From assembly GCA_018714925.1 (NCBI GenBank), contig DVMP01000163.1, forward strand, positions 1-49,495: a stretch of DNA of 49,495 nucleotides. Reading direction: 5' to 3'. The position numbers and the translations under genes were made by a program. This document shows positions 20,251 to 38,343 of this stretch, in pieces. The notes under the pieces are model-generated. The model did not search any database. It had not been told where the DNA came from and was given only the letters and a program-made list of their open reading frames with translations. The DNA comes from Candidatus Allocopromorpha excrementigallinarum. Its GTDB lineage: Bacteria > Bacillota > Clostridia > Peptostreptococcales > Anaerovoracaceae. Within the stretch, counting starts at the first letter, position 1; the number at the start of each line of letters is the position of its first letter.

Positions 20251-20291
20251 GAAAGGCAGGGCAGGCGCAAGACGCGTCTGCCTTGCCTTTC
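20251..20291. terminator. Hairpin between convergent cotJC and the PucR-family gene
   Basis: GAAAGGCAGGGCAGGCGC / GCGTCTGCCTTGCCTTTC 18-bp stem with G-U pairs. Confidence 0.75.
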
Positions 20292-21876
20292 AGTTCAGAA
20301 GCCTGTGGAGAGCGATGGCATAGTAGAGTCTTATGTTGTCGGGCATCTTGTTATGATTGTATCCGAGGCGGTTGTCTATAACGCTGAGACGGTACTTGAC
20401 GGTGTTTTTATGGACGTGAAGAAGGGCGGCGGTCTGAGTGATGCTGCAGCCGGTGTCCAGCATATAGGCCCCGGCTGTAGCCACGGCGTCCCAGTCCTCG
20501 GTGGCGGCGGCAAGTCTGTTTAAAATGAGAGTGTACGGGGCGATGAAATCCTCTCCCCGGGCTATGAGATCGCGGCATTCTCCGGCAAAACGTATGTCAC
20601 CGCCGCTGAACCACCGGCGAGTGGGAAATATTCTTCTGGCGTCCTCGAGATACTGGTTGTTTTTCAGGAAGGCTTCGCGGACCTCTGTTGTATTCTGCAG
20701 GTCGCTGAATCTTGACAGCGTGGCGGAAAGTCCCAGAGAAGAAATCTCGGTGAGGAAGCTTTCCACCTGCTGCAGGGCTTCCCTTTCCGAATATGGAGTG
20801 CTGGAAAAAATAAGGAGCTTGTCCTCGTAGACATCTGAAAAAACTATATCCGAGCAGCTTTTTAGATAGCCGCAGAAAACCCGGGACTGCTCTCTGAGAA
20901 GCTCTGCTGTATGCTCATCTCCCGAAACAACCCACATCTCATGTATCTGGGAGATATCAATGTGGAAGATATCAGCGAGCCGGTGCATTTTAAGAGGGTC
21001 ATCCTGTATTATGGACCGGATAAGCTCTCTGACGGCTACAGCGCCATGGCCCTTTCCCCATATGTTTACACATATTCTGACTATGTCGGCAGCCTGGCTT
21101 CTGAGGATTCGGCTGAGAGGACCGCCTCCTTTTATTATGTAAAGACGCATGGGGCTGTCGCTGTCCGGGATTACAGGAAGGGAATAAACGCTGCAGCCGG
21201 GCATGAAGCTCTCGAGGATGCTGGTATCCTCAGGCGACCTGTAGAGCCTCGGAAGACAGGAAAGAAGCTCCTTTTCCACACTTTGAGGCCATGGGGCTAT
21301 GTTGAGAGTATTGTGGGAATTGTCTGTAAGAATCACCGATGACATAATGTCGTCGCTTATCATTCTGAGAACGGTGCTTATGGTTCTCTGATGCTCAGGA
21401 AGCCGGGAGACCCGGGCCAGTATATCGGAAGCGATAAATTCGTTTTTCGACCTGTCGTTAAATATATATTCCATAACATCGCTTATTACTTCACCGTAGC
21501 GGAGATTCCTGTAGGGAGGCATCTGAATAAGGACAAAGTCAAGGTCATTGGCCAGGTCGATGAGACGTTTGTCCACACGGGGCATGTACACTCCCACATA
21601 AAACAGTATAAGACCGACCTCCCCGCCCTCCGCCAGCCTTTTTATATTTGCGTACTGCTTTTCCACATCCTCGGTGCAGTTGAGAAAGCCGGTTATGACT
21701 ATCTCGCTGCCGAAAAATTCTCCTTGTCTGAAGAGACCATCCACAAGAAGAGAAGGATCTACGGCCTCAAGGACCGATATGGAGGAAACGATACGGCTCA
21801 GACCTCGCTTTCCCGCTATAACCTCAGCGTTTCTCAGAGACGGCAGCTTTAAAATATCAGAGACAGTGACACTCAT
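20290..21876 (-). CDS. PucR-family transcriptional regulator
   Basis: N-terminal PucR sensor (VTVSDIL.LPSL..AEVIAG..GL.R.V) and C-terminal HTH (SITQTAALLHVHKNTVKYRL). Divergent from the permease operon. Confidence 0.93.
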   Translation of the reverse strand: MSVTVSDILKLPSLRNAEVIAGKRGLSRIVSSISVLEAVDPSLLVDGLFRQGEFFGSEIVITGFLNCTEDVEKQYANIKRLAEGGEVGLILFYVGVYMPRVDKRLIDLANDLDFVLIQMPPYRNLRYGEVISDVMEYIFNDRSKNEFIASDILARVSRLPEHQRTISTVLRMISDDIMSSVILTDNSHNTLNIAPWPQSVEKELLSCLPRLYRSPEDTSILESFMPGCSVYSLPVIPDSDSPMRLYIIKGGGPLSRILRSQAADIVRICVNIWGKGHGAVAVRELIRSIIQDDPLKMHRLADIFHIDISQIHEMWVVSGDEHTAELLREQSRVFCGYLKSCSDIVFSDVYEDKLLIFSSTPYSEREALQQVESFLTEISSLGLSATLSRFSDLQNTTEVREAFLKNNQYLEDARRIFPTRRWFSGGDIRFAGECRDLIARGEDFIAPYTLILNRLAAATEDWDAVATAGAYMLDTGCSITQTAALLHVHKNTVKYRLSVIDNRLGYNHNKMPDNIRLYYAIALHRLLN

Positions 21877-21931
21877 ATACTTCTCCTTTTTAAATACAGA
21901 TCACTTACTTTATCTCATATATTTTAAAACA

Positions 21932-21984
21932 ATTTGGCCTAAAGGACAAATATATTCGCGATAATTTCTGCCTGTAAGACAGTT
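21932..21984. promoter_or_regulatory. Candidate PucR-family operator pair
   Basis: ATTTGGCCTAAAGGACAAAT (imperfect palindrome) and a weaker copy TTTCTGCCTGTAAGACAGTT 33 bp downstream, next to a promoter with -10 TAGAAT (22006-22011) and a poor -35. Confidence 0.5.
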
Positions 21985-22053
21985 AAAATTTATCCGCCGG
22001 GAAGATAGAATTTTTTCATATCATTAACGAGCTGTTTTGTAGGAGGAAAATCT

Positions 22054-23382
22054 ATGGGAGAAAACAAAAACAATACCGGTCAGGATAAGGGAATATCCCA
22101 GATACAGGCCCATGAGAAGAGAGGGTGGCCGGGAATCGCCTTTATATGGATAGGGACGATGATATGCATTCCCATGCTCATGGTGGGAGGCATATTCGCG
22201 GAAACCCTTACGGTTCCGTCGATTTTAGGAGTTACGGTGGCAGGCTTTGCCGTCTGCTGCCTTCTTATGGTGCTGGGAGGTATCGTGGGAAGCGATCTGG
22301 GGCTTAACTCCTCCATGACATCCACGAGAGCCTTCGGTATGACGGGAGCCAACTTTACCATGGCTCTGGTGGTGTTTATCGCTGAAGCGGGCTGGTTCGC
22401 GGTGCAGACAGCTACCTGCGCGGTGGCCTTTAATACTCTCCTTGAAATGTCGGGAGTGACCTTTCCCTTCTGGGCCTCATGTACTCTCTGGGGAGCGGTA
22501 ATGTGTATAACGGCCGTCTACGGGGTAAGGTGGATGACAATACTTAACTATGTGGCTGTGCCTCTTCTGCTGATTCTTTGTGTTTACGGGGCCGTTCACT
22601 CCATAAACGAAGCGGGCTGGAGCGCCATAAGCGATACCGTGACCTCCAATACAATGGCCATACCTGCGGCCATCTCAACGGTTATCGGGCTTTTTGCCCT
22701 TGGAGCCACATGTAATTCGGATTATACACGCTACTGCAAGTCAAGAGGAGATGTGGTAAAAGCCACTGTGCTGGGAGTTCTGCCTGCCGCCACCATTATG
22801 ATAATGGTGGGAGCCATAATGGCTCTGGGTACGGGAAATTATGATGTAACAGCCATGTTCGCGGGACTGGGTCTTCCTGTGGTGTCCATGCTGGTGCTTG
22901 TTCTCGCCACGTGGACAACAAATACGGGAAACGCGTACATGTCAGGGCTTGCCGCCTGCAAAATGTTTTCGGTAAAGGACAGATACAGGCCGGCGGTTAC
23001 TATGGTTGTCGGCGTTCTGGGAATCATTATGGCTGTAATGGGCCTGGCGGATGTTCTTAACACCTACATAAGCATTATAGGGGCTGTCGTTCCTCCTATA
23101 ATGGGAATTATAATAGCCGATTACTGGGTAATATGCAGGGGAAAGGCGGAAAACTGGAAGCCTGTGAGAGGAATAAACTGGATCGGCATAATTGCCTGGA
23201 TATGCGGAGGAGGCTTTGCTCTCATAGAGACTCTCGGCATACTGACAGTCTTCAGTCCGGCTCTTGACGGGGTGGTCATTGCCTTCGCGGCCTATGTGGT
23301 GTTTTACAGGCTGCTGGGAAACACGGCCCTGGCTGGAAAGGGAGAAATGACCATAGAAGAGGCAACGGCGTCGGCCAGGTAG
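22054..23382 (+). CDS. NCS1 / cytosine permease (CodB-like) transporter
   Basis: About 12 TM; GWFAVQ, DYTRY, LATWTTNTGNAY, PPIMGIIIADYW. Confidence 0.92.
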   Translation: MGENKNNTGQDKGISQIQAHEKRGWPGIAFIWIGTMICIPMLMVGGIFAETLTVPSILGVTVAGFAVCCLLMVLGGIVGSDLGLNSSMTSTRAFGMTGANFTMALVVFIAEAGWFAVQTATCAVAFNTLLEMSGVTFPFWASCTLWGAVMCITAVYGVRWMTILNYVAVPLLLILCVYGAVHSINEAGWSAISDTVTSNTMAIPAAISTVIGLFALGATCNSDYTRYCKSRGDVVKATVLGVLPAATIMIMVGAIMALGTGNYDVTAMFAGLGLPVVSMLVLVLATWTTNTGNAYMSGLAACKMFSVKDRYRPAVTMVVGVLGIIMAVMGLADVLNTYISIIGAVVPPIMGIIIADYWVICRGKAENWKPVRGINWIGIIAWICGGGFALIETLGILTVFSPALDGVVIAFAAYVVFYRLLGNTALAGKGEMTIEEATASAR

Positions 23383-23433
23383 AGGACAGTGAGGCAGAGT
23401 ACATAAAGTATACAGTTAAGAAAGGAAAAGCAT

Positions 23434-24534
23434 ATGCGTAAAATAGATCTGAAGGATATAGAGGATATAGCTCTTGGAGCGGCTCTTCTCGGCGCGGGAG
23501 GCGGAGGAGATCCATACATAGGAAAGCTGGTAGCCATGGGCGCTGTAAAGGAATGCGGTCCTGTTACCATGCTGGATCCCCAGGAGGTTCCCGATGAAGA
23601 GCTGGTGGTGCCCATAGCAATGATGGGAGCGCCTACGGTTCTTGCGGAGAAAGCGGTGGGAGAAAGGGAGTATGAAACCCTGTTTCACATGGTATCGCGT
23701 TTTTTCGGAAGAGAAATTTACGCCTTTCTTCCAATAGAGGCGGGAGGAGTGAATTCGATGCTTCCCATTGCGGCCTGCGCCAGAATGGGAGTTCCTCTGG
23801 TGGATGCCGACGGAATGGGGAGGGCTTTTCCGGAGCTTCAGATGGTAACCTTCACCATAGGCGGAATAAATGCCTCGCCTATGGCTCTCACAGACGAAAA
23901 GGGAAACTGCGTAATATTTGAAACTGTAACAAACAAATGGACAGAGGAACTGGCCAGAGCTGTTACCATGAGCTGCGGCGGAGCGGTTTCCGTGGCCCTT
24001 TATCCTATGACGGGAAAGCAGATGAAGGAGTATGCCGTAAAGAATATAGTTACACGAAGCCAGCGGCTGGGAGAAGCCATAAGAACCGTAAAGGACTGCG
24101 GGGAAAAGACTCCCGAGGAGCACTTTATGGAGTTTTCGGAAAGCTATAAGCTTTTTAAAGGAAAGATATCCGATGTTTTAAGGGAGACGAGAGGAGCCTT
24201 TAACCTGGGAAAGGTCATGCTGGAGGGAATGGGAGAATACAAGGGAAAGGAGGCGTATGTGGAGTTTCAGAACGAGAATCTGCTGGCCTGTGTGGATGGC
24301 GAGATACTGGCGACGGTTCCGGATCTCATATGTATTGTGGATGCGGAAACCTTTGTGCCTGTGACTACAGACGCCCTCAAATACGGAAAGCGCGTATATG
24401 TAACGGGACTGAAATGCTTTGAAATGTGGAGAAGCCCTGAAGGCCTGGAGCTGGTGGGTCCGAAATATTTCGGCTGCGATACGGACTATATTCCCGTAGA
24501 GGAAAGATACAAAGGAGGAGTGAAAAATGTATAG
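23434..24534 (+). CDS. DUF917-family protein
   Basis: LLGAGGGGDPY, MMGAP, EAGGVN, DADGMGRAFPELQM, QNENL, VPDLI. Confidence 0.9.
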   Translation: MRKIDLKDIEDIALGAALLGAGGGGDPYIGKLVAMGAVKECGPVTMLDPQEVPDEELVVPIAMMGAPTVLAEKAVGEREYETLFHMVSRFFGREIYAFLPIEAGGVNSMLPIAACARMGVPLVDADGMGRAFPELQMVTFTIGGINASPMALTDEKGNCVIFETVTNKWTEELARAVTMSCGGAVSVALYPMTGKQMKEYAVKNIVTRSQRLGEAIRTVKDCGEKTPEEHFMEFSESYKLFKGKISDVLRETRGAFNLGKVMLEGMGEYKGKEAYVEFQNENLLACVDGEILATVPDLICIVDAETFVPVTTDALKYGKRVYVTGLKCFEMWRSPEGLELVGPKYFGCDTDYIPVEERYKGGVKNV

Positions 24535-26077
24535 GCTGGGAATAGATGTGGGAGGAACCAATACGGACGCGGTTCTCATAGATGAAAATATGAAGGTGGC
24601 GGCAGAGGTTAAAAGACCCACATCGGAGGATATTTACGAGGGCATTGTGGACGCCATAAAAACCATACTGGCAAAATCAGGAACCGACCCCTCCTCCATA
24701 CGTCAGGCCATGCTGGGAACCACTCAATGCACCAACGCTATTGTGGAAAGAAAGAACCTCGCCTCAGTAGCCCTCCTCAGAATCGGCGCTCCGGCAACAC
24801 TGGGAGTACCTCCTATGACAGACTGGGATGACGACATAAGGTCGGCGGTAACAGCGGAAAAAATAATCGGCGGCGGATACGAGTATGACGGAAAGGAGCT
24901 TGCGCCTCTTGACGAAGATGCGGCGAGGAGCTTTTTCAGGGAGATAAAGGGAAAGGTCGAAGCTATAGCTGTTTCATGTGTCTTTTCCACCATAAGAAAC
25001 GAGCAGGAGACAAGAGCGGCGGAAATATGCCGTCAGGAGCTGGGAGAGGAGGTGCATGTTTCTCTGTCCGGTGAGATAGGGTCCATGGGACTTATAGAAA
25101 GAGAGAACGCGGCCATACTGAACGCCGCTCTCTTCCGTGTGGCTGAAAGCTTTACCGGCGGCTTCGCCAAATCCCTGGAGGAAATGGGGATCACAGGAGC
25201 CGATGTGTATCTTTCCCAGAATGACGGCACTCTTATGACTATGGAGCAGGCCCGCAGATATCCTGTGCTGACCATTGCCTGCGGTCCGACAAACTCCATA
25301 AGAGGAGCCGGCTATCTTTCAAAGATGAAGAACGCTCTTGTAGTGGATGTAGGCGGGACCACCACAGATCTGGGAGTAATTCAGAAGGGATTTCCCCGGG
25401 AATCCAGTATCGCTGTGACAATAGGAGGAGTAAGGACGAATTTCAGAATGCCTGATGTAATAACCATAGGTCTGGGAGGAGGCTCCATAGTGAGACGGAC
25501 GCCTGACGGCAGAGTGACGGTGGGTCCGGACAGCGTCGGCTATAAAATAACGGAGAAGGCTCTGATCTTCGGAGGAGACGTTATTACGGCGACAGATATA
25601 GCGGTACGCCTGGGAATGGCTCAGCTGGGAGACAGCGGGAAGGTGGCCCATATACCCCGGGAGTTTGCCGTTAAGGCCATGGAGGAAATAAAGTCCATGG
25701 CAGAGGACGCCATAGACGCCATGAAGGTATCGGGGGATGATGTGGACGTTATACTTGTAGGGGGAGGATCTGTAATACTTCCGGAAAAGCTGGCGGGGGC
25801 CTCCTCCGTGAAAAAACCGGACTTCTTTGGAACCGCCAACGCCATAGGCTCAGCTATTTCAAAGGTGAGCGGCACCTTTGAAAAGCTCGTTGACTACAAT
25901 AAGGTGCCGCGGGAGGAAGCTCTTGAAAGAGCCAGAGCAGAGGCCGTTGAAATGGCTGTGGAGGCCGGAGCTCTGAGAGAGACCGTGGAAATAATAGACG
26001 CGGAAGACGTTCCTCTGGCATATTACGCCGGCAATACCAACAGGGTAAAGGTAAAGGCGGCAGGTGATCTTTATTAA
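24527..26077 (+). CDS. Hydantoinase A / oxoprolinase N-terminal-type ATPase (HyuA-like)
   Basis: GIDVGGTNTDAV, ERENAAILNA, GPTNSIRGA, DVGGTTTD, GLGGGS, ANAIG. 8-nt overlap with the DUF917 gene. Confidence 0.92.
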   Translation: MYRLGIDVGGTNTDAVLIDENMKVAAEVKRPTSEDIYEGIVDAIKTILAKSGTDPSSIRQAMLGTTQCTNAIVERKNLASVALLRIGAPATLGVPPMTDWDDDIRSAVTAEKIIGGGYEYDGKELAPLDEDAARSFFREIKGKVEAIAVSCVFSTIRNEQETRAAEICRQELGEEVHVSLSGEIGSMGLIERENAAILNAALFRVAESFTGGFAKSLEEMGITGADVYLSQNDGTLMTMEQARRYPVLTIACGPTNSIRGAGYLSKMKNALVVDVGGTTTDLGVIQKGFPRESSIAVTIGGVRTNFRMPDVITIGLGGGSIVRRTPDGRVTVGPDSVGYKITEKALIFGGDVITATDIAVRLGMAQLGDSGKVAHIPREFAVKAMEEIKSMAEDAIDAMKVSGDDVDVILVGGGSVILPEKLAGASSVKKPDFFGTANAIGSAISKVSGTFEKLVDYNKVPREEALERARAEAVEMAVEAGALRETVEIIDAEDVPLAYYAGNTNRVKVKAAGDLY

Positions 26078-28388: not shown

Positions 28389-31100
28389 ATGGGAAACACA
28401 CCTGAAAACAAAATAATACATGGAAAAGAAAGCCGGGAAAAGAATATCGTCATAGGCATTCTCGCCCACGTGGACAGCGGCAAAACCACTCTTTCGGAAG
28501 CTCTCCTTTATAAAACGGGAGTCATAAAAAAGCAGGGAAGAGTAGATCATGGGGATGCCTTTTTTGATACAGACAGCCAGGAGAGGGAAAGGGGCATAAC
28601 CATATTCTCAAAGCAGGCGGTGATGAAATATAACGGGATGCGAATTACGCTTTTTGATACTCCCGGTCATGTGGATTTTTCCGCTGAAACGGAGAGAACC
28701 CTGGAGGTTCTTGATTACGCCGTACTGGCAGTAAGCGGAAGAGACGGAGTGCAGGGCCATACGGCGACACTGTGGAAGCTTTTGGAAAGATATCGTGTGC
28801 CGGTTTTCATATTTGTAAACAAAATGGATATGGAAGGAACTGACAGAAATGCTCTGAGCCGGGAGCTGGCGGAAAGTCTTGACCAGGGCTGTCTGGACTT
28901 TTCGGGATATACAGAAGGAAAGACCTCTAAAGAGCTTATAGAAAAGCTGGCTCTCTGCGATGAAAGGCTCCTTGAGGAGTATCTTGGAAAGGGAAGCGTG
29001 AGCAGAGAGGCCGCGGCCAGGGCTGTAGCGGAGAGAAAGGTATTTCCGTGCTTTTTCGGATCCGCCCTCAGACTTGAGGGCGTAGATGAGCTTCTTGAAG
29101 GACTTGACTGTCTGACAGAGGGCAAAACCTACGGCAGGGATTTCGGAGCCAGAGTTTATAAAATAACAAGGGATGAAAGAAACACACGTCTTACCCATAT
29201 GAAAATAACGGGAGGAACTCTCCGGGTAAAGGATGTGGTATCTGCGACGGGGAAAGAGGAGGAAGGAGAAAAGGCAGAACAGATAAGGATATATTCGGGA
29301 GAAAAATACGAGACGGCGGAATCGGTTTCAGCAGGAGATATATGCGCTGTCGCGGGACTTAAAAAGACTTGTGCCGGTCAGAGGCTGGGAAAGGAAGGAA
29401 GTGCGCATAAAAGGACCGGGAAAAGCCCTGTTCTCCAGCCGGCCCTTGTTTACAGGGTGCTGCTTTCCGAGGGAGCGGATGTCCATGAGAGCTTTCTCAG
29501 AATAAAGGAGCTTGAAGAGGAGGATCCGCTGCTTCAGGCCGTATGGGACAGACAGACAGAGGAAATACAGCTTAGGCTCATGGGACCTGTGCAGCTTGAG
29601 ATACTGAAGAAAATCTTCAGAGAAAGATTTGATCTGGAGCTGGACTTTGGGGAAGGCTCCATAGCCTATAAGGAAACTATAAGAAAGCCTGTCATAGGGT
29701 CGGGACATTTTGAGCCTCTCAGGCATTACGCGGAGGTGCACCTTCTTATGGAGCCGGCAGAGAGAGGGAAGGGCCTCATATTTGACTCGGCGTGCAGTGA
29801 GGATGAGCTGGACAGGAACTGGCAGCGTCTCATAATGACTCATCTGAGGGAGAAGGAGCATACGGGAGTCCTTACAGGTTCTCCTGTAACGGATATAAAG
29901 ATAACTCTGGTAGCGGGACGAGCCCATTTAAAGCATACTGAAGGCGGCGATTTCAGACAGGCTGTGTACAGGGCGGTGAGACAGGGACTCAGAAAGGCGG
30001 AGTCGGTTCTTCTGGAGCCCTGGTACAGCTTCACACTGAAAATTCCGGCAGAAGCTGCGGGAAGAGCCATGTCGGATATAGGCAAAATGAGCGGCGAGTT
30101 TACGGAGCCTGAGATAAAGGAGGCGGCAGCTCTGATACGGGGAAGAGCTCCCGTGAAGGAGATGAAGGATTATTCCGTGGAGGTAAGCTCATATACAAAG
30201 GGGAGGGGAAGTCTTTCGCTGATCTTTGACGGCTATGAAGAATGCCATGACAGCGAAAGGGTTATAGAGGAGACAGGATACGATCCCGATAAGGATGGAG
30301 AAAATCCGGCGGATTCCATTTTCTGCAGAGGCGGAGCGGGAGTTTCCGTAAAGTGGAACGAAGCGGGAAAGTACTTTCACATAGACGGCGAAAAATATCT
30401 GAAGGGCCGGAAGTCTACGGCGGATGGAAAAAATGAAAACAGCCGTAATCAAAGAAGGCTTACCAAGGAAGAGGAAAAGGAGCTTGACCGCATCTTTGAA
30501 ATGACCTCCGGAAGGAATAAGAAGAAAAAGACCTTTGTTCCCAAAAAGACAATACTTTCCTCGGAAGAAAAGAAAAAAACAGAGCCAAAGTCCGCGAGAG
30601 TCCTTGAAGAGTACCTGCTGGTAGACGGATATAATATAATATTCGCGTGGAAACAGCTTAAGGAGCTGGCGGCGGTAAACATGGACTCGGCCCGCCAGGC
30701 TCTCATAGATATTCTCGCCAACTATCAGGGCTACAGAAAATGCAGGCTCATAGTGGTCTTTGACGCCTACAGGGTCAAGGGCGGAGAAAGGCATAAGGAA
30801 AAGCAGGGAGATATAGACATAATATACACCAGGGAGGCGGAGACTGCAGACATGTACATAGAAAGGACGGCCCATGAAAAGAGCCGCGATTTTCATGTGC
30901 GGGTAGCCACCTCCGACAGACTTGAACAGATGATAATTTTCGGAAGCGGCGCTTTTAAGGTGTCGGCCGACGAGTTTCAGGCGGAGGTGGAAGCCGCCGG
31001 CGCAGAGATATCGAGACTTCTTGAGGAATACAGCAGAAAAACGGCTGAAGAAGGAAAGAACAGAATAATTCTTCCGGAAAGGAAGGAAGAGAAAAAGTAA
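28389..31100 (+). CDS. Tet/EF-G-like translational GTPase fused to a C-terminal NYN (YacP/Rae1-type) RNase domain
   Basis: G1 AHVDSGKTT, G2 RGITI, G3 DTPGH, G4 NKMD, EF-G-like domains II-V, Lys-rich linker, then LLVDGYNIIFAW, IVVFDAY, ETADMYIE, VATSDRLEQ. Confidence 0.9.
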   Translation: MGNTPENKIIHGKESREKNIVIGILAHVDSGKTTLSEALLYKTGVIKKQGRVDHGDAFFDTDSQERERGITIFSKQAVMKYNGMRITLFDTPGHVDFSAETERTLEVLDYAVLAVSGRDGVQGHTATLWKLLERYRVPVFIFVNKMDMEGTDRNALSRELAESLDQGCLDFSGYTEGKTSKELIEKLALCDERLLEEYLGKGSVSREAAARAVAERKVFPCFFGSALRLEGVDELLEGLDCLTEGKTYGRDFGARVYKITRDERNTRLTHMKITGGTLRVKDVVSATGKEEEGEKAEQIRIYSGEKYETAESVSAGDICAVAGLKKTCAGQRLGKEGSAHKRTGKSPVLQPALVYRVLLSEGADVHESFLRIKELEEEDPLLQAVWDRQTEEIQLRLMGPVQLEILKKIFRERFDLELDFGEGSIAYKETIRKPVIGSGHFEPLRHYAEVHLLMEPAERGKGLIFDSACSEDELDRNWQRLIMTHLREKEHTGVLTGSPVTDIKITLVAGRAHLKHTEGGDFRQAVYRAVRQGLRKAESVLLEPWYSFTLKIPAEAAGRAMSDIGKMSGEFTEPEIKEAAALIRGRAPVKEMKDYSVEVSSYTKGRGSLSLIFDGYEECHDSERVIEETGYDPDKDGENPADSIFCRGGAGVSVKWNEAGKYFHIDGEKYLKGRKSTADGKNENSRNQRRLTKEEEKELDRIFEMTSGRNKKKKTFVPKKTILSSEEKKKTEPKSARVLEEYLLVDGYNIIFAWKQLKELAAVNMDSARQALIDILANYQGYRKCRLIVVFDAYRVKGGERHKEKQGDIDIIYTREAETADMYIERTAHEKSRDFHVRVATSDRLEQMIIFGSGAFKVSADEFQAEVEAAGAEISRLLEEYSRKTAEEGKNRIILPERKEEKK

Positions 31101-31128: not shown

Positions 31129-31157
31129 TTGACACCCAGACGCGGCAACAGTATAAT
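31129..31157 (+). promoter_or_regulatory. Consensus SigA promoter of the riboswitch-ribU transcript
   Basis: TTGACA-17 bp-TATAAT. Confidence 0.93.
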
Positions 31158-31171
31158 GTACTGGATGGAAG

Positions 31172-31310
31172 ATCTGTTTCAGGGCGAGGTGAAAGTCCTC
31201 ACCGGCGGTGATGAGCCAGCGCTCAAAGTCCGCGAACCCTGCTTATAAAGCGGGGCTGAACGGGTGAGAATCCCGTACCGACGGTTACAGTCCGGATGGA
31301 AGAAACGAGA
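31172..31310 (+). ncRNA. FMN riboswitch (RFN element)
   Basis: TTCAGGGCGAGGTGAAAGTCCTCACCGGCGGT...AGTCCGCGA...GGTGAGAATCCCGTACCGACGGTTACAGTCCGGATGGAAGAA follows the RFN consensus; lies upstream of an ECF S-component gene. Confidence 0.96.
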
Positions 31311-31343
31311 AAATATTCCCCATTTTAAGACGGGTATTTCCTG

Positions 31344-31374
31344 AGCCTTGGAAAAGCTTTCCGGGGCTTTTATT
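31344..31374 (+). terminator. Terminator of the riboswitch expression platform
   Basis: AGCCTTGGAAA-agc-TTTCCGGGGCT followed by TTTATT. Confidence 0.8.
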
Positions 31375-31445
31375 ATGAGAAGAACTCCGTCTCCTGACAG
31401 ATTCCCGAGACAATCTATACTTTAAACTTCGAGGAGGAATTTGAA

Positions 31446-32000
31446 ATGAATCAGAAAACGGTGAGACTTGCTAAGATGGGAATGCTGGTGGCGGTGTCAA
31501 TAGTACTTGTGTACTTTGTGCATTTTCCCATATTTCCCGCTGTAGCATTTCTTGAATACGACCCTGCCGACATTCCGATACTTATGGGAACATTTGCCTT
31601 CGGCCCTTTAGCCGGAATACTTCTTACGGTGGTAACCTCTGTGGTTCAGGGAGTCACCGTCAGCGCGGCCAGCGGCGTATACGGCATAATAATGCATATA
31701 ATAGCCACAAGCGTATTCGTGCTGGTGGCGGGAATAATATACAAGAAGAACAAAACAAAGAAGGGCGCGGTAATTTCTCTTATCTGCGGAATATTTGCCA
31801 TGGTCATAGTAATGATAGGAGCCAATATGGTTATAACTCCGCTGTTTATGGGAGTTCCGGCGCAGGTGGTATGGGATCTCATGCCTTTTATAGCCGGATT
31901 TAACGCCATAAAAGCGGGAATAAACGGATTCGTAACATTTCTGCTTTATAAGAGAATATCGGGATTTCTCCACGGGGATACCGTCTCAAAGGCTGCCTGA
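31446..32000 (+). CDS. ribU: ECF transporter S component, riboflavin-specific by context
   Basis: FPIFP...FL.YDPADIP...FAFGP..G, FN.IK motif, about 6 TM; FMN riboswitch upstream. Confidence 0.9.
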   Translation: MNQKTVRLAKMGMLVAVSIVLVYFVHFPIFPAVAFLEYDPADIPILMGTFAFGPLAGILLTVVTSVVQGVTVSAASGVYGIIMHIIATSVFVLVAGIIYKKNKTKKGAVISLICGIFAMVIVMIGANMVITPLFMGVPAQVVWDLMPFIAGFNAIKAGINGFVTFLLYKRISGFLHGDTVSKAA

Positions 32001-32091: not shown

Positions 32092-32517
32092 ATGAAAGAG
32101 AAAATATTCAGAGTGAAAAATCAGGAAGAAACTGAAGCCCTGGCCCAAAGCCTTGCTCAAATGGCGGCGCCGGGTATGGTTATAGCCATGAGGGGAGATC
32201 TGGGGACGGGAAAAACAACCTTTACCAAGGCGTTTGCTAAAGGTCTCGGTATAGAGGAAACGGTGACCAGTCCGACCTTTAATATTGTAAAGGAATACAG
32301 GGGAGGAAGGATTCCTCTGTATCATTTTGACGTTTACAGAATAGACGATCCTGAGGAAATGTACGAGCTGGGGTACGAGGAATACTTTTACGGAGACGGA
32401 GTCTGCGCAGTAGAGTGGGCGGAGAAAATAGGAGAGCTTATTCCCGAAGATGCCGTGAGAATACACATATCCTACGGTGAAAAAGAAGGAGAACGCATAT
32501 ACAGATGTATATTTTAG
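32092..32517 (+). CDS. tsaE: tRNA t6A biosynthesis ATPase TsaE
   Basis: GDLGTGKTTF, VTSPTF, HFDVYR, VEWA. Confidence 0.96.
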   Translation: MKEKIFRVKNQEETEALAQSLAQMAAPGMVIAMRGDLGTGKTTFTKAFAKGLGIEETVTSPTFNIVKEYRGGRIPLYHFDVYRIDDPEEMYELGYEEYFYGDGVCAVEWAEKIGELIPEDAVRIHISYGEKEGERIYRCIF

Positions 32518-33248
32518 CTTTTGAAACAACAGGAGCCTTCGCGTCAGCGGCTCTGGCCGATGAAAAGGGAGTAATATCATACGTTCAGGGGAAGGACAGA
32601 TTTTCCCACCTTCAGAATCTTATGCCTCAGACAGAGCAGGTGATCCATGAGGGGGGAATTACCCTGAAGGAGCTGGCAGCCATAGCGGTATCAAAGGGAC
32701 CGGGCTCCTTTACGGGAATAAGAATAGGAGTGTCTTCGGCAAGAGCCCTGTCTCAGGCGCTTGATATTCCATGTGTGGGAGTTTCAAGTCTGGAGGCGCT
32801 GGCTTTAAACGCCGCCGCTGCCGCGGAGGAAGGAGCGCTCATATGTCCTGTGCTTGACGCCAGAAGAAGTCAGGTCTACGGAGGCGGATACCTTATAAAG
32901 GATGGTTTCCCCGAGGAAATAATAAAGGCGGCCCCTTACACTATAGAGGAGTTTATGGGGAAGGTCGCCGAATATGATCGAATATTGATGTTAGGCGATG
33001 GAACCGATGCCTGCGGGGAAATAATAGAAAAACTCAGGCCCGCGGGAAGAGAGACGGCAAAAGAAGCCGTAAGATATCAGAAGGCTGATTCTGTGGCGCG
33101 TCTGGCTCTTAAAATATTCAGGGAGGAAGGCGGAGTTCCTTACGGAAGGCTTCAGCCTGAATATATGCGCGTGGCGGAAGCGGAAAGACGTCTGGCGGAG
33201 AAGAGAAAGGCTCAGGGAAAAGGCGCCTTGCAGAAAGAGGAGAAATGA
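32505..33248 (+). CDS. tsaB: tRNA t6A biosynthesis protein TsaB
   Basis: ILAFETT, GPGSFTGIRIG, LDARR.QVY, PEYMR. Confidence 0.95.
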   Translation: MYILAFETTGAFASAALADEKGVISYVQGKDRFSHLQNLMPQTEQVIHEGGITLKELAAIAVSKGPGSFTGIRIGVSSARALSQALDIPCVGVSSLEALALNAAAAAEEGALICPVLDARRSQVYGGGYLIKDGFPEEIIKAAPYTIEEFMGKVAEYDRILMLGDGTDACGEIIEKLRPAGRETAKEAVRYQKADSVARLALKIFREEGGVPYGRLQPEYMRVAEAERRLAEKRKAQGKGALQKEEK

Positions 33249-33252
33249 TCAT

Positions 33253-33708
33253 ATGGCTGATATGATAATAAGACAGGCGGATGTCGGAGACGCGGAAGCC
33301 ATTTATCAGATAGAAAGACTGTGCTTTCCCGACCCCTGGAGCAGAGACTCGCTCATATACGAGCTGGGGGAAAACCCCAGAGCCTTTTATATAGTGGCGG
33401 TCCTTGATGAAAAGGTGGTAGGCTACGCGGGTATGTGGTGGATAGAGGATGAAGGCCACATAACAAATGTGGCGGTTATGCCGGGCTACAGAAACAGAAA
33501 AATCGGACAGGGAATAGTGGACGTTATGCTGGATTTTACATCAGGGGAAGGAATACGCCATCATACTCTCGAGGTGCGCCGTTCAAATGAAGCCGCTATA
33601 AAGCTTTATGAAAAAATGGGATTCAGAACAGAGGGAGTCCGCAGAGGCTATTACCTTAATAATGGGGAGGACGCCCTCATAATGTGGAGGCACGGACAGT
33701 CTGACTGA
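33253..33708 (+). CDS. rimI: Ribosomal protein S18 alanine N-acetyltransferase
   Basis: IE..CF..PWS, EGHITNVAV, TLEVR.SN..A..LY, R.GYY...GEDALIMW. Confidence 0.93.
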   Translation: MADMIIRQADVGDAEAIYQIERLCFPDPWSRDSLIYELGENPRAFYIVAVLDEKVVGYAGMWWIEDEGHITNVAVMPGYRNRKIGQGIVDVMLDFTSGEGIRHHTLEVRRSNEAAIKLYEKMGFRTEGVRRGYYLNNGEDALIMWRHGQSD

Positions 33709-33783
33709 ATAAAAAGCTTTCCTTCCACAGATAATACTTTTAAGACACCGGAAAAAGTATAGAGCTGTCAGCGGGAGGAAAGT

Positions 33784-33960
33784 ATGGATAAAAAAGCAGG
33801 AGACAATATGAATTTCGTCTCTACAGGATGCAGGAAATTTGCCAGAAGGCACGATTTTACTCTTTTCAGCATGAGCGATTACACTTCCTGTGAAAACTGC
33901 AGACATCTGAACGGAGAAAATCAATGTGAGAAAATGCTGGAAGAAGGACGGAAAAAATGA
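33784..33960 (+). CDS. 58-aa four-cysteine small protein (absent from the supplied ORF track)
   Basis: GGAGG at 33774-33778, ATG 33784, translation MDKKAGDNMNFVSTGCRKFARRHDFTLFSMSDYTSCENCRHLNGENQCEKMLEEGRKK; its TGA overlaps the tsaD ATG (ATGA 33957-33960). A second in-frame ATG at 33808 also has an AGGAG. Confidence 0.75.
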   Translation: MDKKAGDNMNFVSTGCRKFARRHDFTLFSMSDYTSCENCRHLNGENQCEKMLEEGRKK

Positions 33961-34976
33961 AGGAAAACAGGGAGCTTATAACACTTGCCATAGAATCCAG
34001 CTGTGACGAGACAGCGTGCGCCGTGTTAAGGGGAGGACGGGAAGTCCTCTCCAGCGTCATCTCGTCTCAGACAGAGATACATAAACAGTACGGAGGCGTG
34101 GTCCCTGAGATTGCCTCAAGGCATCATCTTACCAATATAAACGCCGTTGTTGACGAGGCTCTCCGCAGGGGAGGAATATCCCTTGGGGAGGCTGATATAA
34201 TAGGTGTTACATACGGGCCCGGTCTTGTGGGAGCCCTTCTTATAGGACTGGCTACGGCTAAGGCTTATGCCCTGGCTATGGGAAAGCCTCTTGTGGGAGT
34301 GCATCATATACACGGACATATATGCGCCAACTACATAGAACACAGAGATCTTGAGCCTCCGTTTCTGGCTCTGGTAATATCGGGAGGCCATACCAATATA
34401 GTAGAGGTAACGGGATATAATCAGTGCCGTGTACTGGGGTCAACAAGAGACGACGCGGCGGGAGAGGCCTTTGACAAGGTTGCCAGAGTGCTGGGGCTGG
34501 GATATCCCGGAGGCCCTCTCATAGACAGGCTGGCAAGGGAAGGAGATCCGAGAAGGGTGGAGTTTAAAAGGGTATTTCTGGAAAAGGGAAGCCTTGACTT
34601 CAGCTTCAGCGGTATAAAAACAGGAGTCCTCAATTATATAAATTCGGAAAAGCAGGCGGGACGCGAAATAAACAGAGCTGATGTAGCCGCGGGATTCCAG
34701 GCCGCGGTTCTGGAGGTTATAGTTGCCAAGACTGTATCGGCAGCCGTTAATATGAAAAAGGACAAAATAGTTCTGGCGGGAGGAGTCGCCGCCAACAGCA
34801 GGCTGAGAGAAATGTTTGAGGAGGAATGCGGCGGGAAGGGGCTGAGGCTTTTTTACCCGTCTCCCGTGCTGTGCACGGATAACGCCGCCATGATAGGCTG
34901 CGCGGCCTATTATAAATATACGGCGGGAGAAACAGATGACCTGACCCTGGATGCCATACCTGACCTTAAGCTTTAA
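33957..34976 (+). CDS. tsaD: tRNA t6A threonylcarbamoyltransferase TsaD
   Basis: LAIESSCDET, GGVVPEIASRHH, HHIHGH, SGGHT, DDAAGEAFDK, CTDNAAMI. Confidence 0.97.
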   Translation: MKENRELITLAIESSCDETACAVLRGGREVLSSVISSQTEIHKQYGGVVPEIASRHHLTNINAVVDEALRRGGISLGEADIIGVTYGPGLVGALLIGLATAKAYALAMGKPLVGVHHIHGHICANYIEHRDLEPPFLALVISGGHTNIVEVTGYNQCRVLGSTRDDAAGEAFDKVARVLGLGYPGGPLIDRLAREGDPRRVEFKRVFLEKGSLDFSFSGIKTGVLNYINSEKQAGREINRADVAAGFQAAVLEVIVAKTVSAAVNMKKDKIVLAGGVAANSRLREMFEEECGGKGLRLFYPSPVLCTDNAAMIGCAAYYKYTAGETDDLTLDAIPDLKL

Positions 34977-34987
34977 AGGGAGAATAT

Positions 34988-36946
34988 ATGATAGTATTAT
35001 CAGCGAAGGATTTGACAAAGACATATGGAACAGATGTTATACTGAAGGGGGTCTCCTTTCATATTAACAGAGGAGACAGAGTAGGAATAATAGGGGTAAA
35101 CGGGGCAGGCAAGACCACCCTTCTTAAGATGCTTACAGGAGAGATTAGCTGCGAGGAGGGGGAATTTTTCGTTTCTGCCGGTACGCGAATAGGATATCTT
35201 AAGCAGGATGGAGGCTTTGATTCGGAAAAGACGGTAATAGAGGAAGCGGAAGGCATCTTCTCCCATCTGGCTGCCATGGAGTCTGAGATGGAGGAGCTTC
35301 TCAGAGGGACCGAGGACCTTTCAGAGGAGGAAAGCAGAGAAAGGGCGGAGCGATACGACCTTGTTCACGAGAGATACAAAGACGGGGGAGGATATACATA
35401 TAAAAGCGAAATAAGAGGAATCCTTTCAAGCATGGCCTTTGACGAAGCTGACCTGGGAAAGAGGATATCATCTCTCAGCGGCGGGGAGAAGACGCGGCTG
35501 GCTTTAGCGTGTCTGCTTCTGAAAAAGCCGGATCTTCTTTTACTTGACGAGCCTACCAATCATCTGGATATAGGAACTCTAAAGTGGCTGGAGCAGTATC
35601 TCAAAGGGTACAGGGGCACTATGGTTCTCGTGTCTCATGACAGGTATTTTCTTAACGAGACCGTTACCAGGATATTTGAGATAGAAAACCACAGGCTCAG
35701 CGTATATGAAGGAAGCTATACCTTTTACGCCTCTGAAAGAAAGAAACGGCGGGAAGCTGAGCTGAGGAAATACGAAAAGCAGCAGAGGGAAATCCATCGC
35801 CAGGAGGATATAATAAGGCGTTTCAAGGAGAGAGGCACCGAAAAGCTGGCCAAAAGAGCGGCCTCCAGAGAAAAACGCCTGGCAGCCATGGAGATTATGG
35901 AAAGGCCGGAGGGAGAGAGAGGAAAAATGAAGCTCTCCTTCAGAGAAAATTTCAAAAGCGGACAGGATGTTCTGCTGGCGGAAAACATTTCAAAGAGCTT
36001 CGGACGCGGAGCACAAAGAAGGAAGCTGTTTGAAAACGCCGATCTTGATATAAAGCGTGGAGAAAGGGTATGTATAGTAGGAGCCAACGGCATAGGAAAG
36101 ACAACCCTTCTCAGGATACTGACGGAGGAGATTGCCGCTGATACGGGCCGTATTAAAATAGGCCACAACGTGCAGATAGGATACTATGATCAGGGGCAGC
36201 AGCGTCTGAACGGCTCAAATACTGTTATAGAGGAGCTGCAGGACGCCTACAGGCTTTACAGCGAGACGGAGCTCAGGAATATACTGGGGAGATTTCTGTT
36301 CAGAGGTGAGTCGGTCTTTCTTAAGGTGGGAGATCTCAGCGGAGGAGAAAAAGCCCGGCTGGCTCTTCTCAAGCTGATGCTTTCGGGAGCAAACCTTCTT
36401 TTGCTCGACGAGCCTACCAACCATCTTGATATAGAGTCAAAGGAGGTCTTTGAAGAGGCTCTTCTGGAATTTCCGGGCACCAGCATTATAGTTTCTCACG
36501 ACAGATATTTCCTTAACAGAATACCTACAAGAATAGCGGAGCTTACTTCTGAAGGGATAAGAAATTATCTGGGAAAATACGATTACTACGAAGAAAAAAG
36601 ACAGCAGACGGAGTCGGGAAAGAAATATCTCAGGCAGATGGCGGAGGAAACAAAATCAGCCTCGGGAAAAAAGGAGGATGATTACGGAGAGGGACTTTCG
36701 GCTGCCGAGAGACGAAGACTGCAGAAGGAAAGAGAGGCAGAGGAGAGACGCCTGAGAAGAAGGAAGGAGGCCCTTGAAGAGGAAATAGAAAGCCTTGAAA
36801 GAGACATAAAAAATCTGGAGGAGCAGGTCTCTCTCCAGGAGAACATGACTGATCATGTAAAGCTTGCTGAAATAAGCGGAGCTCTGGAGAAAAAAAGGAA
36901 AACACTGGAAGAAAAGTACGAAAATTGGCTTCAGCTGCAGGAATAA
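34988..36946 (+). CDS. ABC-F ribosome-associated ATPase (YdiF-like)
   Basis: Two ABC domains (GVNGAGKT / GANGIGKT, LSGGEK, DEPTNHLD twice), no TM, C-terminal coiled coil; position after tsaD as for Bacillus ydiF. Confidence 0.93.
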   Translation: MIVLSAKDLTKTYGTDVILKGVSFHINRGDRVGIIGVNGAGKTTLLKMLTGEISCEEGEFFVSAGTRIGYLKQDGGFDSEKTVIEEAEGIFSHLAAMESEMEELLRGTEDLSEEESRERAERYDLVHERYKDGGGYTYKSEIRGILSSMAFDEADLGKRISSLSGGEKTRLALACLLLKKPDLLLLDEPTNHLDIGTLKWLEQYLKGYRGTMVLVSHDRYFLNETVTRIFEIENHRLSVYEGSYTFYASERKKRREAELRKYEKQQREIHRQEDIIRRFKERGTEKLAKRAASREKRLAAMEIMERPEGERGKMKLSFRENFKSGQDVLLAENISKSFGRGAQRRKLFENADLDIKRGERVCIVGANGIGKTTLLRILTEEIAADTGRIKIGHNVQIGYYDQGQQRLNGSNTVIEELQDAYRLYSETELRNILGRFLFRGESVFLKVGDLSGGEKARLALLKLMLSGANLLLLDEPTNHLDIESKEVFEEALLEFPGTSIIVSHDRYFLNRIPTRIAELTSEGIRNYLGKYDYYEEKRQQTESGKKYLRQMAEETKSASGKKEDDYGEGLSAAERRRLQKEREAEERRLRRRKEALEEEIESLERDIKNLEEQVSLQENMTDHVKLAEISGALEKKRKTLEEKYENWLQLQE

Positions 36947-36961
36947 AATTCTTAAAAACTA

Positions 36962-36990
36962 TTGCATAAAGGTAATAGGTACTCTATAAT
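36962..36990 (+). promoter_or_regulatory. SigA promoter of acpP-rex
   Basis: TTGCAT-17 bp-TATAAT. Confidence 0.8.
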
Positions 36991-37070
36991 AAGTGGGAAG
37001 TTATCAAGGCGGAGCCTTGATTTAAGCAACTCTGTAAAGAACTTGATAATGTGTATAATGGAGGTATATC

Positions 37071-37298
37071 ATGACATTAGAAAAGATCAAAGGAATAATC
37101 GCGGAGCAGTTAGGAGTAGAAGAGGATGCGGTAAAAATGGAAACTCATCTCATGAAGGATCTTGAGGCGGATTCATTGGATGCCGTTGAAATTATAATGG
37201 CTATAGAAGATGAATTCGACATTGAAGTTCCTGATGAAGACGCTGAGAAGTTCCAGACCGTAAGCGACATTGTAAGCTACGTGGAAGGCAAGCTGTAG
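37071..37298 (+). CDS. acpP: Acyl carrier protein
   Basis: [20 protein letters not shown] phosphopantetheine site; GGAGGT RBS. Confidence 0.96.
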
Positions 37299-37363
37299 AG
37301 CGCCTCAGACGGAAGTCTTAAAAGTAATAAAATAAATATCATCAAAGAAAGAAGAATCGGGGA

Positions 37364-38008
37364 ATGAAGAGACAGGCAAAGATTTCTAACGCTGTAATAA
37401 AACGATTGCCTAGATACAGGAGATATCTGAAAGAGTTACAGAAAAAAGGAGTCGATAAAATTTCTTCAAACGAATTCAGCAATCTCATAGGCTATACAGC
37501 ATCACAGATAAGACAGGATCTGAATAATTTCGGCGGGTTCGGACAGCAGGGCTACGGATACAGCGTGGACAGCCTTTACAAGGAAATAAGCGCCATATTG
37601 GGGCTGGACAGGCAGTATAAGATGGTCATAGTTGGCGCCGGCAATCTCGGTCAGGCCATAGCCAACCATACCTATTACTATAAAGCAGGCTTTGTTGTAT
37701 GCGGGATTTTTGAGATAAATCCAAGACTTATCGGCATCAGAATAAATGATATAGAGGTAATGGACTATGAGAATGTGGTGGAGTATGTAGAAGAAAATGA
37801 CATTGATATAGGCGTAATATGCACCACTAAGGAGGCTGCCCAGGAGGTAGCCGACAAGCTGTGCTTCGCAGGGGTAAAGGGCCTCTGGAACTTTGCGCCT
37901 GTAGATATAGAAACGCCTAATCATGTGGCTATCGAAAATGTGCATCTCAGTGACAGTCTCCACTCTCTGGCATATCACATGAACAGACTGAATGAGGAAA
38001 AAAACTGA
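37364..38008 (+). CDS. rex: Redox-sensing repressor Rex
   Basis: RLPRY.RYL, ASQIRQDL..FG.FGQQGYGY, VGAGNLGQA, WNFAP. Confidence 0.96.
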   Translation: MKRQAKISNAVIKRLPRYRRYLKELQKKGVDKISSNEFSNLIGYTASQIRQDLNNFGGFGQQGYGYSVDSLYKEISAILGLDRQYKMVIVGAGNLGQAIANHTYYYKAGFVVCGIFEINPRLIGIRINDIEVMDYENVVEYVEENDIDIGVICTTKEAAQEVADKLCFAGVKGLWNFAPVDIETPNHVAIENVHLSDSLHSLAYHMNRLNEEKN

Positions 38009-38099: not shown

Positions 38100-38273
38100 C
38101 TAGTCCTCAGGTACCGGAGCGTCAACAGGACATGCACCTGCACAGGCGCCGCAGTCGATGCACTTATCGGCTTCGATAACGTACATGCTGTCTCCGGCAG
38201 AGATGGCATCAGTAGGACATTCGTCAGCACATGCGCCACAGTTGATGCATGAATCCTTTATAACATAAGCCAT
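38100..38273 (-). CDS. fdx: Clostridial 2[4Fe-4S] ferredoxin
   Basis: MAYVI..CINCGACADECP...CIDCGACAGACP. AAGGAGGT RBS supports ATG 38273. Promoter TTGAAT-17-TATAAT at 38342-38314 on the minus strand. Confidence 0.96.
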   Translation of the reverse strand: MAYVIKDSCINCGACADECPTDAISAGDSMYVIEADKCIDCGACAGACPVDAPVPED

Positions 38274-38343
38274 GATATTACCTCCTTTAATATTATCATT
38301 AAACGACACGTTGATTATAACAAACCTTAATGAGGAATTCAAG

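What the first reader, a model, noticed from the sequence alone, without database searches (positions are those of the whole stretch)
28389..31100. Tet/EF-G-like GTPase fused to a Rae1/YacP RNase: candidate single-chain ribosome rescue or mRNA surveillance factor
Seen: intact G1-G4 motifs, EF-G-like domains, a Lys-rich linker, and from about 30610 an NYN domain with its acidic motifs (VDGYN, VFDA, TAD, TSD). The domain IV tip reads AHLKHTEGGDFR (about 29922-29957), whereas TetM/TetO have YSPVSTPADFR and EF-G has YHDVDSS. Known: the YSPVST loop is central to tetracycline release, and B. subtilis Rae1 (YacP) cleaves mRNA in a ribosome-dependent way. Inference: not a tetracycline-resistance protein, although pipelines would probably label it so, but a GTPase that docks on stalled ribosomes and delivers an endonuclease. 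I believe the architecture is present in databases, but I know of no functional characterisation.
Basis: partly seen in the sequence, partly recalled or inferred. Interest (0 to 1): 0.8.

Follow-up and report, generated by a model that had tools for sequence, protein, structure and literature searches.

The report
Ribosome GTPase fusion replaces Rae1 nuclease
This intact gene joins an EF-G-like GTPase to a Rae1-type RNase domain and, in the gut Clostridia that carry it, takes the place of the usual stand-alone rae1 gene, so it likely cuts mRNA at stalled ribosomes and is probably not the tetracycline-resistance protein databases often call it.

Summary
In detail: one intact 903-aa ORF with EF-G-like domains I-V, a family-specific C-terminal extension, a flexible linker and a NYN_YacP domain carrying all four Rae1 aspartates. 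It is no artefact: 120 of 120 listed homologues are fused and contigs from two studies span the junction. The architecture is in print (Atkinson 2015; Matelska 2017); I found no test of it, and this scan noted it before in other genomes. Added here: the fusion displaces rae1. This genome's rlmB-sigH slot is intact but empty. None of 300 Clostridia genomes had both forms (about 114 fused, 83 stand-alone). Fused NYN domains form one clade apart from this order's own Rae1. The GTPase fails Tet cut-offs, lacks the Tet loop and lies outside the Tet clade. Best reading: GTPase-tethered Rae1 cutting mRNA at stalled or collided ribosomes (0.55). Against it: unfused GTPases occur independently of Rae1, and TetM tolerates loop changes.

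The parts
28389..31100 (+). Whole ORF, 903 aa: EF-G-like translational GTPase fused to a Rae1/YacP NYN domain
   Evidence: AlphaFold2 model mean pLDDT 91.1
28443..29108 (+). G domain (residues 19-240); K32, T71, H94, K145 and D147 all kept in 113 of 113 fused homologues
29145..29651 (+). EF-G-like domains II and III (residues 253-421)
29655..30002 (+). Domain IV (423-538), the most conserved part of the GTPase; loops GHFEPLRHYAE (29703-29735) and AHLKHTEGGDFR (29922-29957)
   Evidence: 79% mean identity in 35 near homologues against 62% for the G domain
30006..30254 (+). Domain V (EFG_C, 540-622)
30243..30383 (+). Family-specific C-terminal extension (619-665): helix plus beta-hairpin with conserved C619, C646 and H664 (each 108 of 113) and H648 (94 of 113; Gly in this copy); also present in unfused relatives; a metal site is possible (inference)
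30384..30608 (+). Flexible charged linker (666-740), 64-143 residues in 113 homologues, with one conserved helix (693-707; 30465-30509)
30615..31061 (+). NYN_YacP (Rae1-type) domain (743-891); D746, D792, D821, D843 align with B. subtilis Rae1 D7, D53, D81, D104 and are invariant in 113 of 113

Best explanation
This protein is the genome's only detected Rae1-type nuclease, carried on an intact EF-G-like GTPase, and it likely binds stalled or collided ribosomes through the GTPase and would cut the mRNA with the tethered NYN domain. Shown: architecture, intact catalytic residues of both parts, loss of stand-alone rae1 from its normal slot, mutual exclusion of the two forms, one clade of fused NYN domains. 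[quoted passage not shown] The GTPase would have taken over targeting from Rae1's basic C-terminal tail, which most fused copies have lost. I put the NYN domain doing Rae1's job at about 0.75, and the GTPase gating or delivering it at about 0.55.
For: Only one PF05991 match in the own genome, the fusion. On contig C22 the order is cysS-mrnC-thyA-folA-rlmB-sigH, with the rlmB stop overlapping the sigH start (mrnC, thyA and folA partly by homology and position). All 9 stand-alone loci from the same order read rlmB-rae1-sigH. Of 300 Clostridia genomes scored, 197 have NYN_YacP and none has both forms over the cut-off; about 31 are expected if independent, though kin are not independent. rlmB loci of 31 fusion-bearing genomes: 0 have a NYN gene nearby, and 13 run straight into sigH with a gap of at most 342 nt; 26 of 29 stand-alone loci read rlmB-rae1-sigH. 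Both states occur within single families (f18, f28, f32) and within this order. NYN tree: 40 fused plus 1 stand-alone in one clade (99/92), apart from this order's own Rae1 proteins, which suggests repeated displacement. Four aspartates and five GTPase residues invariant in 113 of 113. Basic tail motif in 19 of 27 stand-alone against 4 of 113 fused (looser pattern 20 of 27 against 16 of 113). tmRNA and SmpB present. Rae1 acts on collided ribosomes and feeds trans-translation (PMC13622287, 10.64898/2026.10.09.757949, PMC12407103).
Against: No activity was measured. The GTPase exists without NYN and shows no link to Rae1: in 6 of 83 genomes with stand-alone Rae1 and 8 of 103 without any, Fisher p = 1. 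Five Bifidobacterium, Collinsella and Lactobacillaceae copies nest inside the fused clade without NYN, so the GTPase has a job of its own. B. subtilis Rae1 works without a fused GTPase, and its mapped cut lies away from the A site. 103 of 300 genomes lack NYN_YacP altogether, so empty rlmB-sigH slots also arise by plain loss: 4 of 5 same-genus assemblies without a NYN hit show one too. Neighbouring genes give no support: 393 ORFs in 353 clusters. 28 of the 83 'stand-alone' genomes are inferred (NYN hit, no family GTPase), and 92 'fused' calls rest mostly on frame length.
Confidence: 0.55

Rival explanations
1. Two jobs on one chain. The NYN domain is an ordinary Rae1 that rides along, and the GTPase does a separate A-site job (clearing or unjamming the decoding site); the fusion is kept because it co-localises both on ribosomes, with no mechanistic coupling.
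For: Unfused family GTPases of about 650 aa are basal and widespread (Paenibacillus, Cohnella, Intestinibacter), occur independently of Rae1, and NYN was lost again in at least one clade. The linker is long, variable and low-confidence in the model. Redundancy alone would explain loss of rae1.
Against: Most fused copies lost the basic tail kept by stand-alone Rae1. A conserved linker helix (motif in 71 of 113) and a minimum linker length of 64 suggest a geometric constraint. The fusion is kept intact in about 111 of 300 genomes, with 3 broken or split.
Confidence: 0.22
2. A divergent ribosomal protection protein against tetracycline or another A-site drug, with the RNase clearing drug-stalled mRNAs (the idea raised by Atkinson 2015).
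For: Best NCBIfam hit is tet_protect (427 bits); the G' region and overall length are Tet-like; loop III has TetO's length and keeps DFR; TetM tolerates a triple alanine change in this loop (PMC4750697); trees suggest horizontal spread.
Against: Below every Tet cut-off (775-1425 bits); about 30% identity to Tet(O)/Tet(W)/Tet(36); Lys at the Pro509 position in 110 of 113; own clade apart from the Tet proteins; single copy with no mobile-element gene among the window's scanned ORFs; GC3 of the GTPase part (0.51) matches its neighbours (0.49-0.53); mutual exclusion with a housekeeping RNase is not expected of a resistance gene.
Confidence: 0.1
3. A ribosome maturation or disposal factor: the GTPase tests the factor-binding site of immature or damaged 70S and the NYN domain cuts rRNA or tRNA.
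For: rRNA/tRNA processing was proposed from gene context for NYN_YacP and rRNA RNase activity for these clostridial proteins (PMC5499597, PMC4342817). EF-G paralogues such as EFL1/Ria1 proofread ribosomes (recalled).
Against: Those proposals predate the mapping of Rae1 to mRNA; all mapped Rae1 targets in the papers read are mRNAs. The fused domain descends from canonical Rae1.
Confidence: 0.08
4. The GTPase delivers the nuclease into the A site itself and cleavage is RelE-like, unlike B. subtilis Rae1.
For: Rae1 was first modelled into the A site (PMC10351889); the GTPase binds next to it; the Rae1 tail is lost.
Against: Domain IV would fill the A site while the GTPase is bound (inference from TetM and EF-G); the A-site model was replaced by tail-end cleavage; a long tether would not be needed.
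Confidence: 0.05

Closest known systems
Clostridial Tet/TetM-like-NYN_YacP fusion proteins (Atkinson 2015, PMC4342817; Matelska et al. 2017, PMC5499597; passages read)
   Same: Same architecture and taxa. Both papers leave function open.
   Different: They report ten clostridiales species or 'some Clostridia' and frame it as possible tetracycline resistance. Here it is in about 111 of 300 sampled Clostridia, lies outside the Tet clade and excludes stand-alone rae1. I did not read their supplementary accession lists.
Rae1/YacP of Bacillus subtilis (PF05991; PDB 5MQ8, 5MQ9)
   Same: Domain match E 3e-30 over residues 3-154; catalytic D7 and D81 and the other two aspartates kept; one copy per genome.
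   Different: Fused to a 665-residue GTPase; outside the rlmB-sigH operon; basic C-terminal tail mostly lost.
Tet(M)/Tet(O)/Tet(W)/TetB(P) ribosomal protection proteins
   Same: EF-G-like domains I-V, intact GTPase, loop III of the same length ending in DFR.
   Different: About 30% identity, below NCBIfam cut-offs, different loop I and loop III, different C-terminal extension, separate clade, extra nuclease, chromosomal single copy.
SmrB (E. coli) and MutS2/RqcU (B. subtilis) collision factors (PMC10897456, passages read)
   Same: Collision-site factors; MutS2 is an NTPase joined by a flexible loop to a domain that sits on the mRNA between collided ribosomes.
   Different: SMR fold, not NYN; MutS2 is an ATPase that splits ribosomes without cutting mRNA; no translational GTPase. 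This genome also has a MutS2 match.

Membership tests
Tet ribosomal protection proteins (TetM/O/W/36/B(P)) | EF-G-like domains I-V with intact GTPase motifs | tested here: met
Tet ribosomal protection proteins (TetM/O/W/36/B(P)) | Score over NCBIfam tet_protect cut-offs | tested here: not met
   427 against 775 bits (NF012153); 281 against 1100 (NF033148); 312 against 900 (Otr(A))
Tet ribosomal protection proteins (TetM/O/W/36/B(P)) | Loop III SP-x-STPADFR with the Pro509 equivalent | tested here: not met
   AHLKHTEGGDFR, Lys at that position in 110 of 113; 4 of 4 named Tet proteins keep SP-x-STP
Tet ribosomal protection proteins (TetM/O/W/36/B(P)) | Branches within the Tet clade | tested here: not met
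   separate clades at 100 and 98-100 support in two trees; quick and FastTree methods, few Tet rows
Tet ribosomal protection proteins (TetM/O/W/36/B(P)) | Confers tetracycline resistance by GTP-dependent drug release | not testable with these tools
   needs MIC and release assays
Rae1/YacP (NYN_YacP) | PF05991 over cut-off with the DGYN motif | tested here: met
   164.9 against 24.6 bits
Rae1/YacP (NYN_YacP) | Catalytic D7 and D81 plus D53 and D104 | tested here: met
   D746, D821, D792, D843 by alignment to 5MQ9; 113 of 113; D7N D81N is the catalytic mutant in PMC10351889
Rae1/YacP (NYN_YacP) | Single-domain protein of about 170 aa in the rlmB-rae1-sigH operon | tested here: not met
   fused and elsewhere; slot empty
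Rae1/YacP (NYN_YacP) | Basic C-terminal tail (LEKxR-type) of clostridial stand-alone Rae1 | tested here: not met
   absent here; 4 of 113 fused against 19 of 27 stand-alone
Rae1/YacP (NYN_YacP) | Translation-dependent mRNA cleavage upstream of stalled ribosomes | not testable with these tools
   needs in vitro translation-cleavage or 5'-end sequencing
Elongation factor G (FusA) | TIGR00484 cut-off, EF-G domain IV loops, EF-G clade | tested here: not met
   315 against 659 bits; loops differ; separate clade
Clostridial TetM-like-NYN_YacP fusion (Atkinson 2015; Matelska 2017) | Tet-like GTPase fused to C-terminal NYN_YacP in Clostridia | tested here: met
Clostridial TetM-like-NYN_YacP fusion (Atkinson 2015; Matelska 2017) | Orthology to the accessions listed in those papers' supplements | not tested
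   supplements not opened

The most novel reading that the evidence does not exclude
A distinct, unstudied family of translational GTPases captured Rae1 once and has repeatedly displaced the ancestral rae1 gene across gut Clostridia, making it the main collision nuclease of over a third of them: a GTP-gated A-site sensor that reads the state of the decoding centre and licenses mRNA cleavage at the collision interface, a bacterial no-go-decay factor in one chain.
Probability: 0.4. Interest if true: 0.85.

Novelty: new member of a known kind. Interest (0 to 1): 0.62.

Why it matters
How Rae1 finds stalled or collided ribosomes is open: a 2026 preprint states that no ribosome-bound structure exists because binding is transient (PMC13622287, Discussion). 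A natural GTPase fusion could be locked on the ribosome with a non-hydrolysable GTP analogue or a switch II His mutant, which would make the question directly testable. If the reading holds, it adds a GTP-gated rescue factor in major gut families (Lachnospiraceae, Oscillospiraceae, Anaerovoracaceae), it means surveys that count Rae1 presence merge two architectures, and it flags a common chromosomal gene that is often labelled as tetracycline resistance (7 of 11 named homologues). The unfused 650-aa GTPase is itself an unexplained translation factor.

Tried and rejected
Assembly artefact: rejected. rae1 missing only because the assembly is 91% complete: rejected, since the slot is assembled and empty. 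My recollection that TetB(P) lacks the SPxSTP loop was wrong: the fetched TetB(P) has it. Obligate partnership of unfused GTPase and stand-alone Rae1: not supported. Conserved neighbours: none; 63 of 69 loci parsed, largest cluster a MATE transporter in 7 loci; only 12 neighbour representatives were scanned against Pfam, so mobile genes nearby are not excluded. Second PF05991 matches in G060 and G278 were weak, below cut-off. Complex prediction of NYN (735-895) with domains IV-V, extension and linker helix (425-712): no verdict, score 0.17 under the 0.32 mark. Fold search with domain V plus extension returned domain V matches; the extension was barely tested, so nothing is claimed on its fold. 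No RNA holder listed, so nothing on expression; run X18 is probably DNA. Rows left out: G132 not scored; L011 and L079 missed by my motif filter for the NYN tree; L145 and L156 are cut by contig ends; some 'unfused' representatives may be fragments; two rows I labelled RPP there (L019, the Agrobacterium Otr(A)-like CDS) are unverified. Paper searches that found no functional study of the fusion or of the unfused GTPase; term searches in three recent Rae1 papers found no mention of Clostridia, TetM or GTPase. The TetO and TetM structure papers and the 2017 Rae1 paper were not held, and most subscription journals are outside the library, so a study may have been missed. A recalled claim that bL9 blocks EF-G on the collided ribosome was not confirmed and is not used.
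Full report
Observation. The window holds one ORF at 28389-31100 (+), 903 aa. Pfam finds GTP_EFTU, EF-G domains II to V and NYN_YacP, each over its cut-off. AlphaFold2 on a 113-row alignment gives mean pLDDT 91.1, with low confidence only in parts of the linker (685-691, 707-724, 730-733); Foldseek's top matches are EF-G structures. The fusion is real: the 120 best of 7,988 scored homologues all carry both the GTPase and the NYN family, and contigs from two studies cross the junction without gaps, one of which may be this DNA's source.

Anatomy. Five GTPase residues and four NYN aspartates are invariant in 113 of 113 fused homologues. D746 and D821 align with B. subtilis Rae1 D7 and D81, the residues of the catalytic mutant (PMC10351889, passages). 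Domain IV is the most conserved GTPase part, also among the 35 homologues picked by the full-length search (79% against 62% for the G domain), with near-invariant loops GHFEPLRHYAE and AHLKHTEGGDFR. After domain V comes a 47-residue extension with conserved C619, C646, H648 (Gly here) and H664, shared with unfused relatives and unlike the Tet C-terminus; a metal site is my inference. The linker is 64-143 residues long and holds one conserved helix. The basic tail of stand-alone Rae1 is in 19 of 27 stand-alone and 4 of 113 fused proteins.

It is not a Tet protein by membership. It scores 427 bits against a 775 cut-off for the general protection-protein model and is below all others. It is about 30% identical to Tet(O), Tet(W) and Tet(36). 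Four of four named Tet proteins, TetB(P) included, keep SP-x-STPADFR; this family has Lys at the position of TetM Pro509, which contacts C1054 (PMC8161019, passages), in 110 of 113. Two trees place the family, fused and unfused, in its own clade apart from Tet proteins and EF-G. This lowers membership, not the possibility of drug protection: a TetM S508A/P509A/V510A mutant is active (PMC4750697, passages) and the loop here has TetO's length.

It replaces rae1. The own genome (91% complete) has one PF05991 match, the fusion. The normal rae1 slot is assembled and empty: rlmB's stop overlaps sigH's start on contig C22, whereas 9 of 9 stand-alone loci from the same order read rlmB-rae1-sigH. Among 40 relatives, the genus matches are fused (19 of 24 have a match, one split over two contigs) and 15 of 16 genomes of other families in the order are stand-alone. 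Of 300 Clostridia genomes, 197 match; of the 150 rows listed, 92 lie in frames of 700 aa or more, 55 in frames of at most 220 aa and 3 in between. Of the 47 unlisted, 19 have the family GTPase in 857-937-aa frames and 28 do not. Only two genomes had a second match, both below cut-off. So 0 of 300 have both forms, against about 31 under independence, a figure that overstates the case because kin are not independent. In a phylum sample, 83 of 151 match and each has one match. At the rlmB locus of 31 fusion-bearing genomes that I chose across families, none has a NYN gene, 13 run into sigH within 342 nt and 18 show no sigH in the stretch; 26 of 29 stand-alone loci keep rlmB-rae1-sigH. In the NYN tree, 40 fused domains and one stand-alone copy (G259, next to rlmB, in a genome that also has an unfused GTPase) form one clade at 99/92, while this order's and family f18's stand-alone proteins lie in the other clade. 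The fused group alone is not resolved as a clade (support 11/0). One origin of the fusion followed by spread and repeated loss of the resident rae1 is the simplest reading; I ran no formal reconciliation.

Results against a tight coupling. The unfused GTPase is found in 6 of 83 genomes with stand-alone Rae1 and 8 of 103 with none (p = 1). Basal unfused forms occur in Paenibacillus, Cohnella and Intestinibacter, and five Bifidobacterium, Collinsella and Lactobacillaceae copies nest in the fused clade without NYN. A third of sampled Clostridia lack NYN_YacP. Neighbours are not conserved. In the window the gene follows an M18 aminopeptidase, a Rid protein and a MazG-like gene, precedes an FMN riboswitch with its own consensus promoter, and no mobile-element gene was found among the ORFs scanned.

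Mechanism. [quoted passage not shown] The most likely role of the fusion is the same cut, with the GTPase supplying ribosome binding and timing. Docking at the factor site, probing of the A site by domain IV, reach by the linker and release on hydrolysis are all inferred. A 64-residue minimum linker could span about 200 Angstrom if extended (arithmetic at about 3.5 Angstrom per residue, less the helix); I had no ribosome coordinates to measure the distance. tmRNA, SmpB, MutS2 and an RqcH-family gene are present in the genome. Confidence 0.55; passenger fusion 0.22; drug protection 0.10; rRNA/tRNA role 0.08; A-site cleavage 0.05.

What is known. Atkinson 2015 notes the fusion in ten clostridiales species and suggests RNase-linked resistance (PMC4342817, passages); Matelska et al. 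2017 note it and call the role unclear (PMC5499597, passages). I found no functional study (searches; library limits apply; supplements not read). The scan's own index shows look-alike stretches in 106 genomes and eight earlier notes with the same reading; these are not independent support, and I had found both papers before that call. Verdict: a new member of a catalogued, apparently untested architecture. The displacement of rae1 is the strongest indirect evidence for function and makes the protein a good handle on how Rae1 is recruited. Interest 0.62.

Noticed in passing
window 31129-32000 (+): Perfect sigma-70 consensus promoter (31129-31157), FMN riboswitch (31171-31311, RF00050, 107.7 bits), terminator-like hairpin (31343-31369) and an ECF S-component gene (31446-32000): an ordinary riboflavin-uptake unit, separate from the fusion.
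   Followed up: partly
G000 whole assembly; C125:5404-7311, C22:1-145: No canonical fusA found by tblastn; the best EF-G match is an EF-G2-like protein on C125, and tuf is cut at the end of C22. Likely an assembly gap, not tested.
   Followed up: partly
L062:1674-3011 (G000 C22): thyA and folA are inserted between mrnC and rlmB in the cysS operon of this genome.
   Followed up: no
L055:1527-3917 (Ligilactobacillus salivarius megaplasmid record): Unfused family GTPase, annotated as TetM family, lies divergently next to a second rpsN (S14) and a 'metal homeostasis protein'; its loop III has drifted to ASNVHTVGGDFR. With the Cys/His extension this hints at a zinc link; untested.
   Followed up: no
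L017 and L049 (genome G259): A genome with an unfused family GTPase and a stand-alone Rae1 beside rlmB whose sequence groups with the fused NYN domains: a possible pre-fusion state or a fission.
   Followed up: partly
L052 (G301), G144, G321: Three genomes have the fusion in shorter or split frames (618, 351 with 588, 355 aa); broken or at contig ends, not examined.
   Followed up: no
L129 and L175: Fused genes in records titled Alloprevotella and Barnesiella (Bacteroidota bins) branch among clostridial copies: transfer or bin contamination.
   Followed up: no
window 32092-38008 (+): tsaE-tsaB-rimI-tsaD, an ABC-F ATPase and rex follow downstream, a usual Bacillota gene order (tsaB, rimI and tsaD named from sequence by recall).
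   Followed up: no
window 20290-26077: PucR-type regulator divergent from a cytosine/purine permease, an S-Me-THD-like protein and a hydantoinase/oxoprolinase gene: a small catabolic unit of unknown substrate.
   Followed up: no
window 38272-39150 (+): 292-aa ORF with an N-terminal P-loop-like motif and no Pfam match at E 1e-8, between a small ferredoxin-like ORF and an 8-oxoguanine glycosylase.
   Followed up: no
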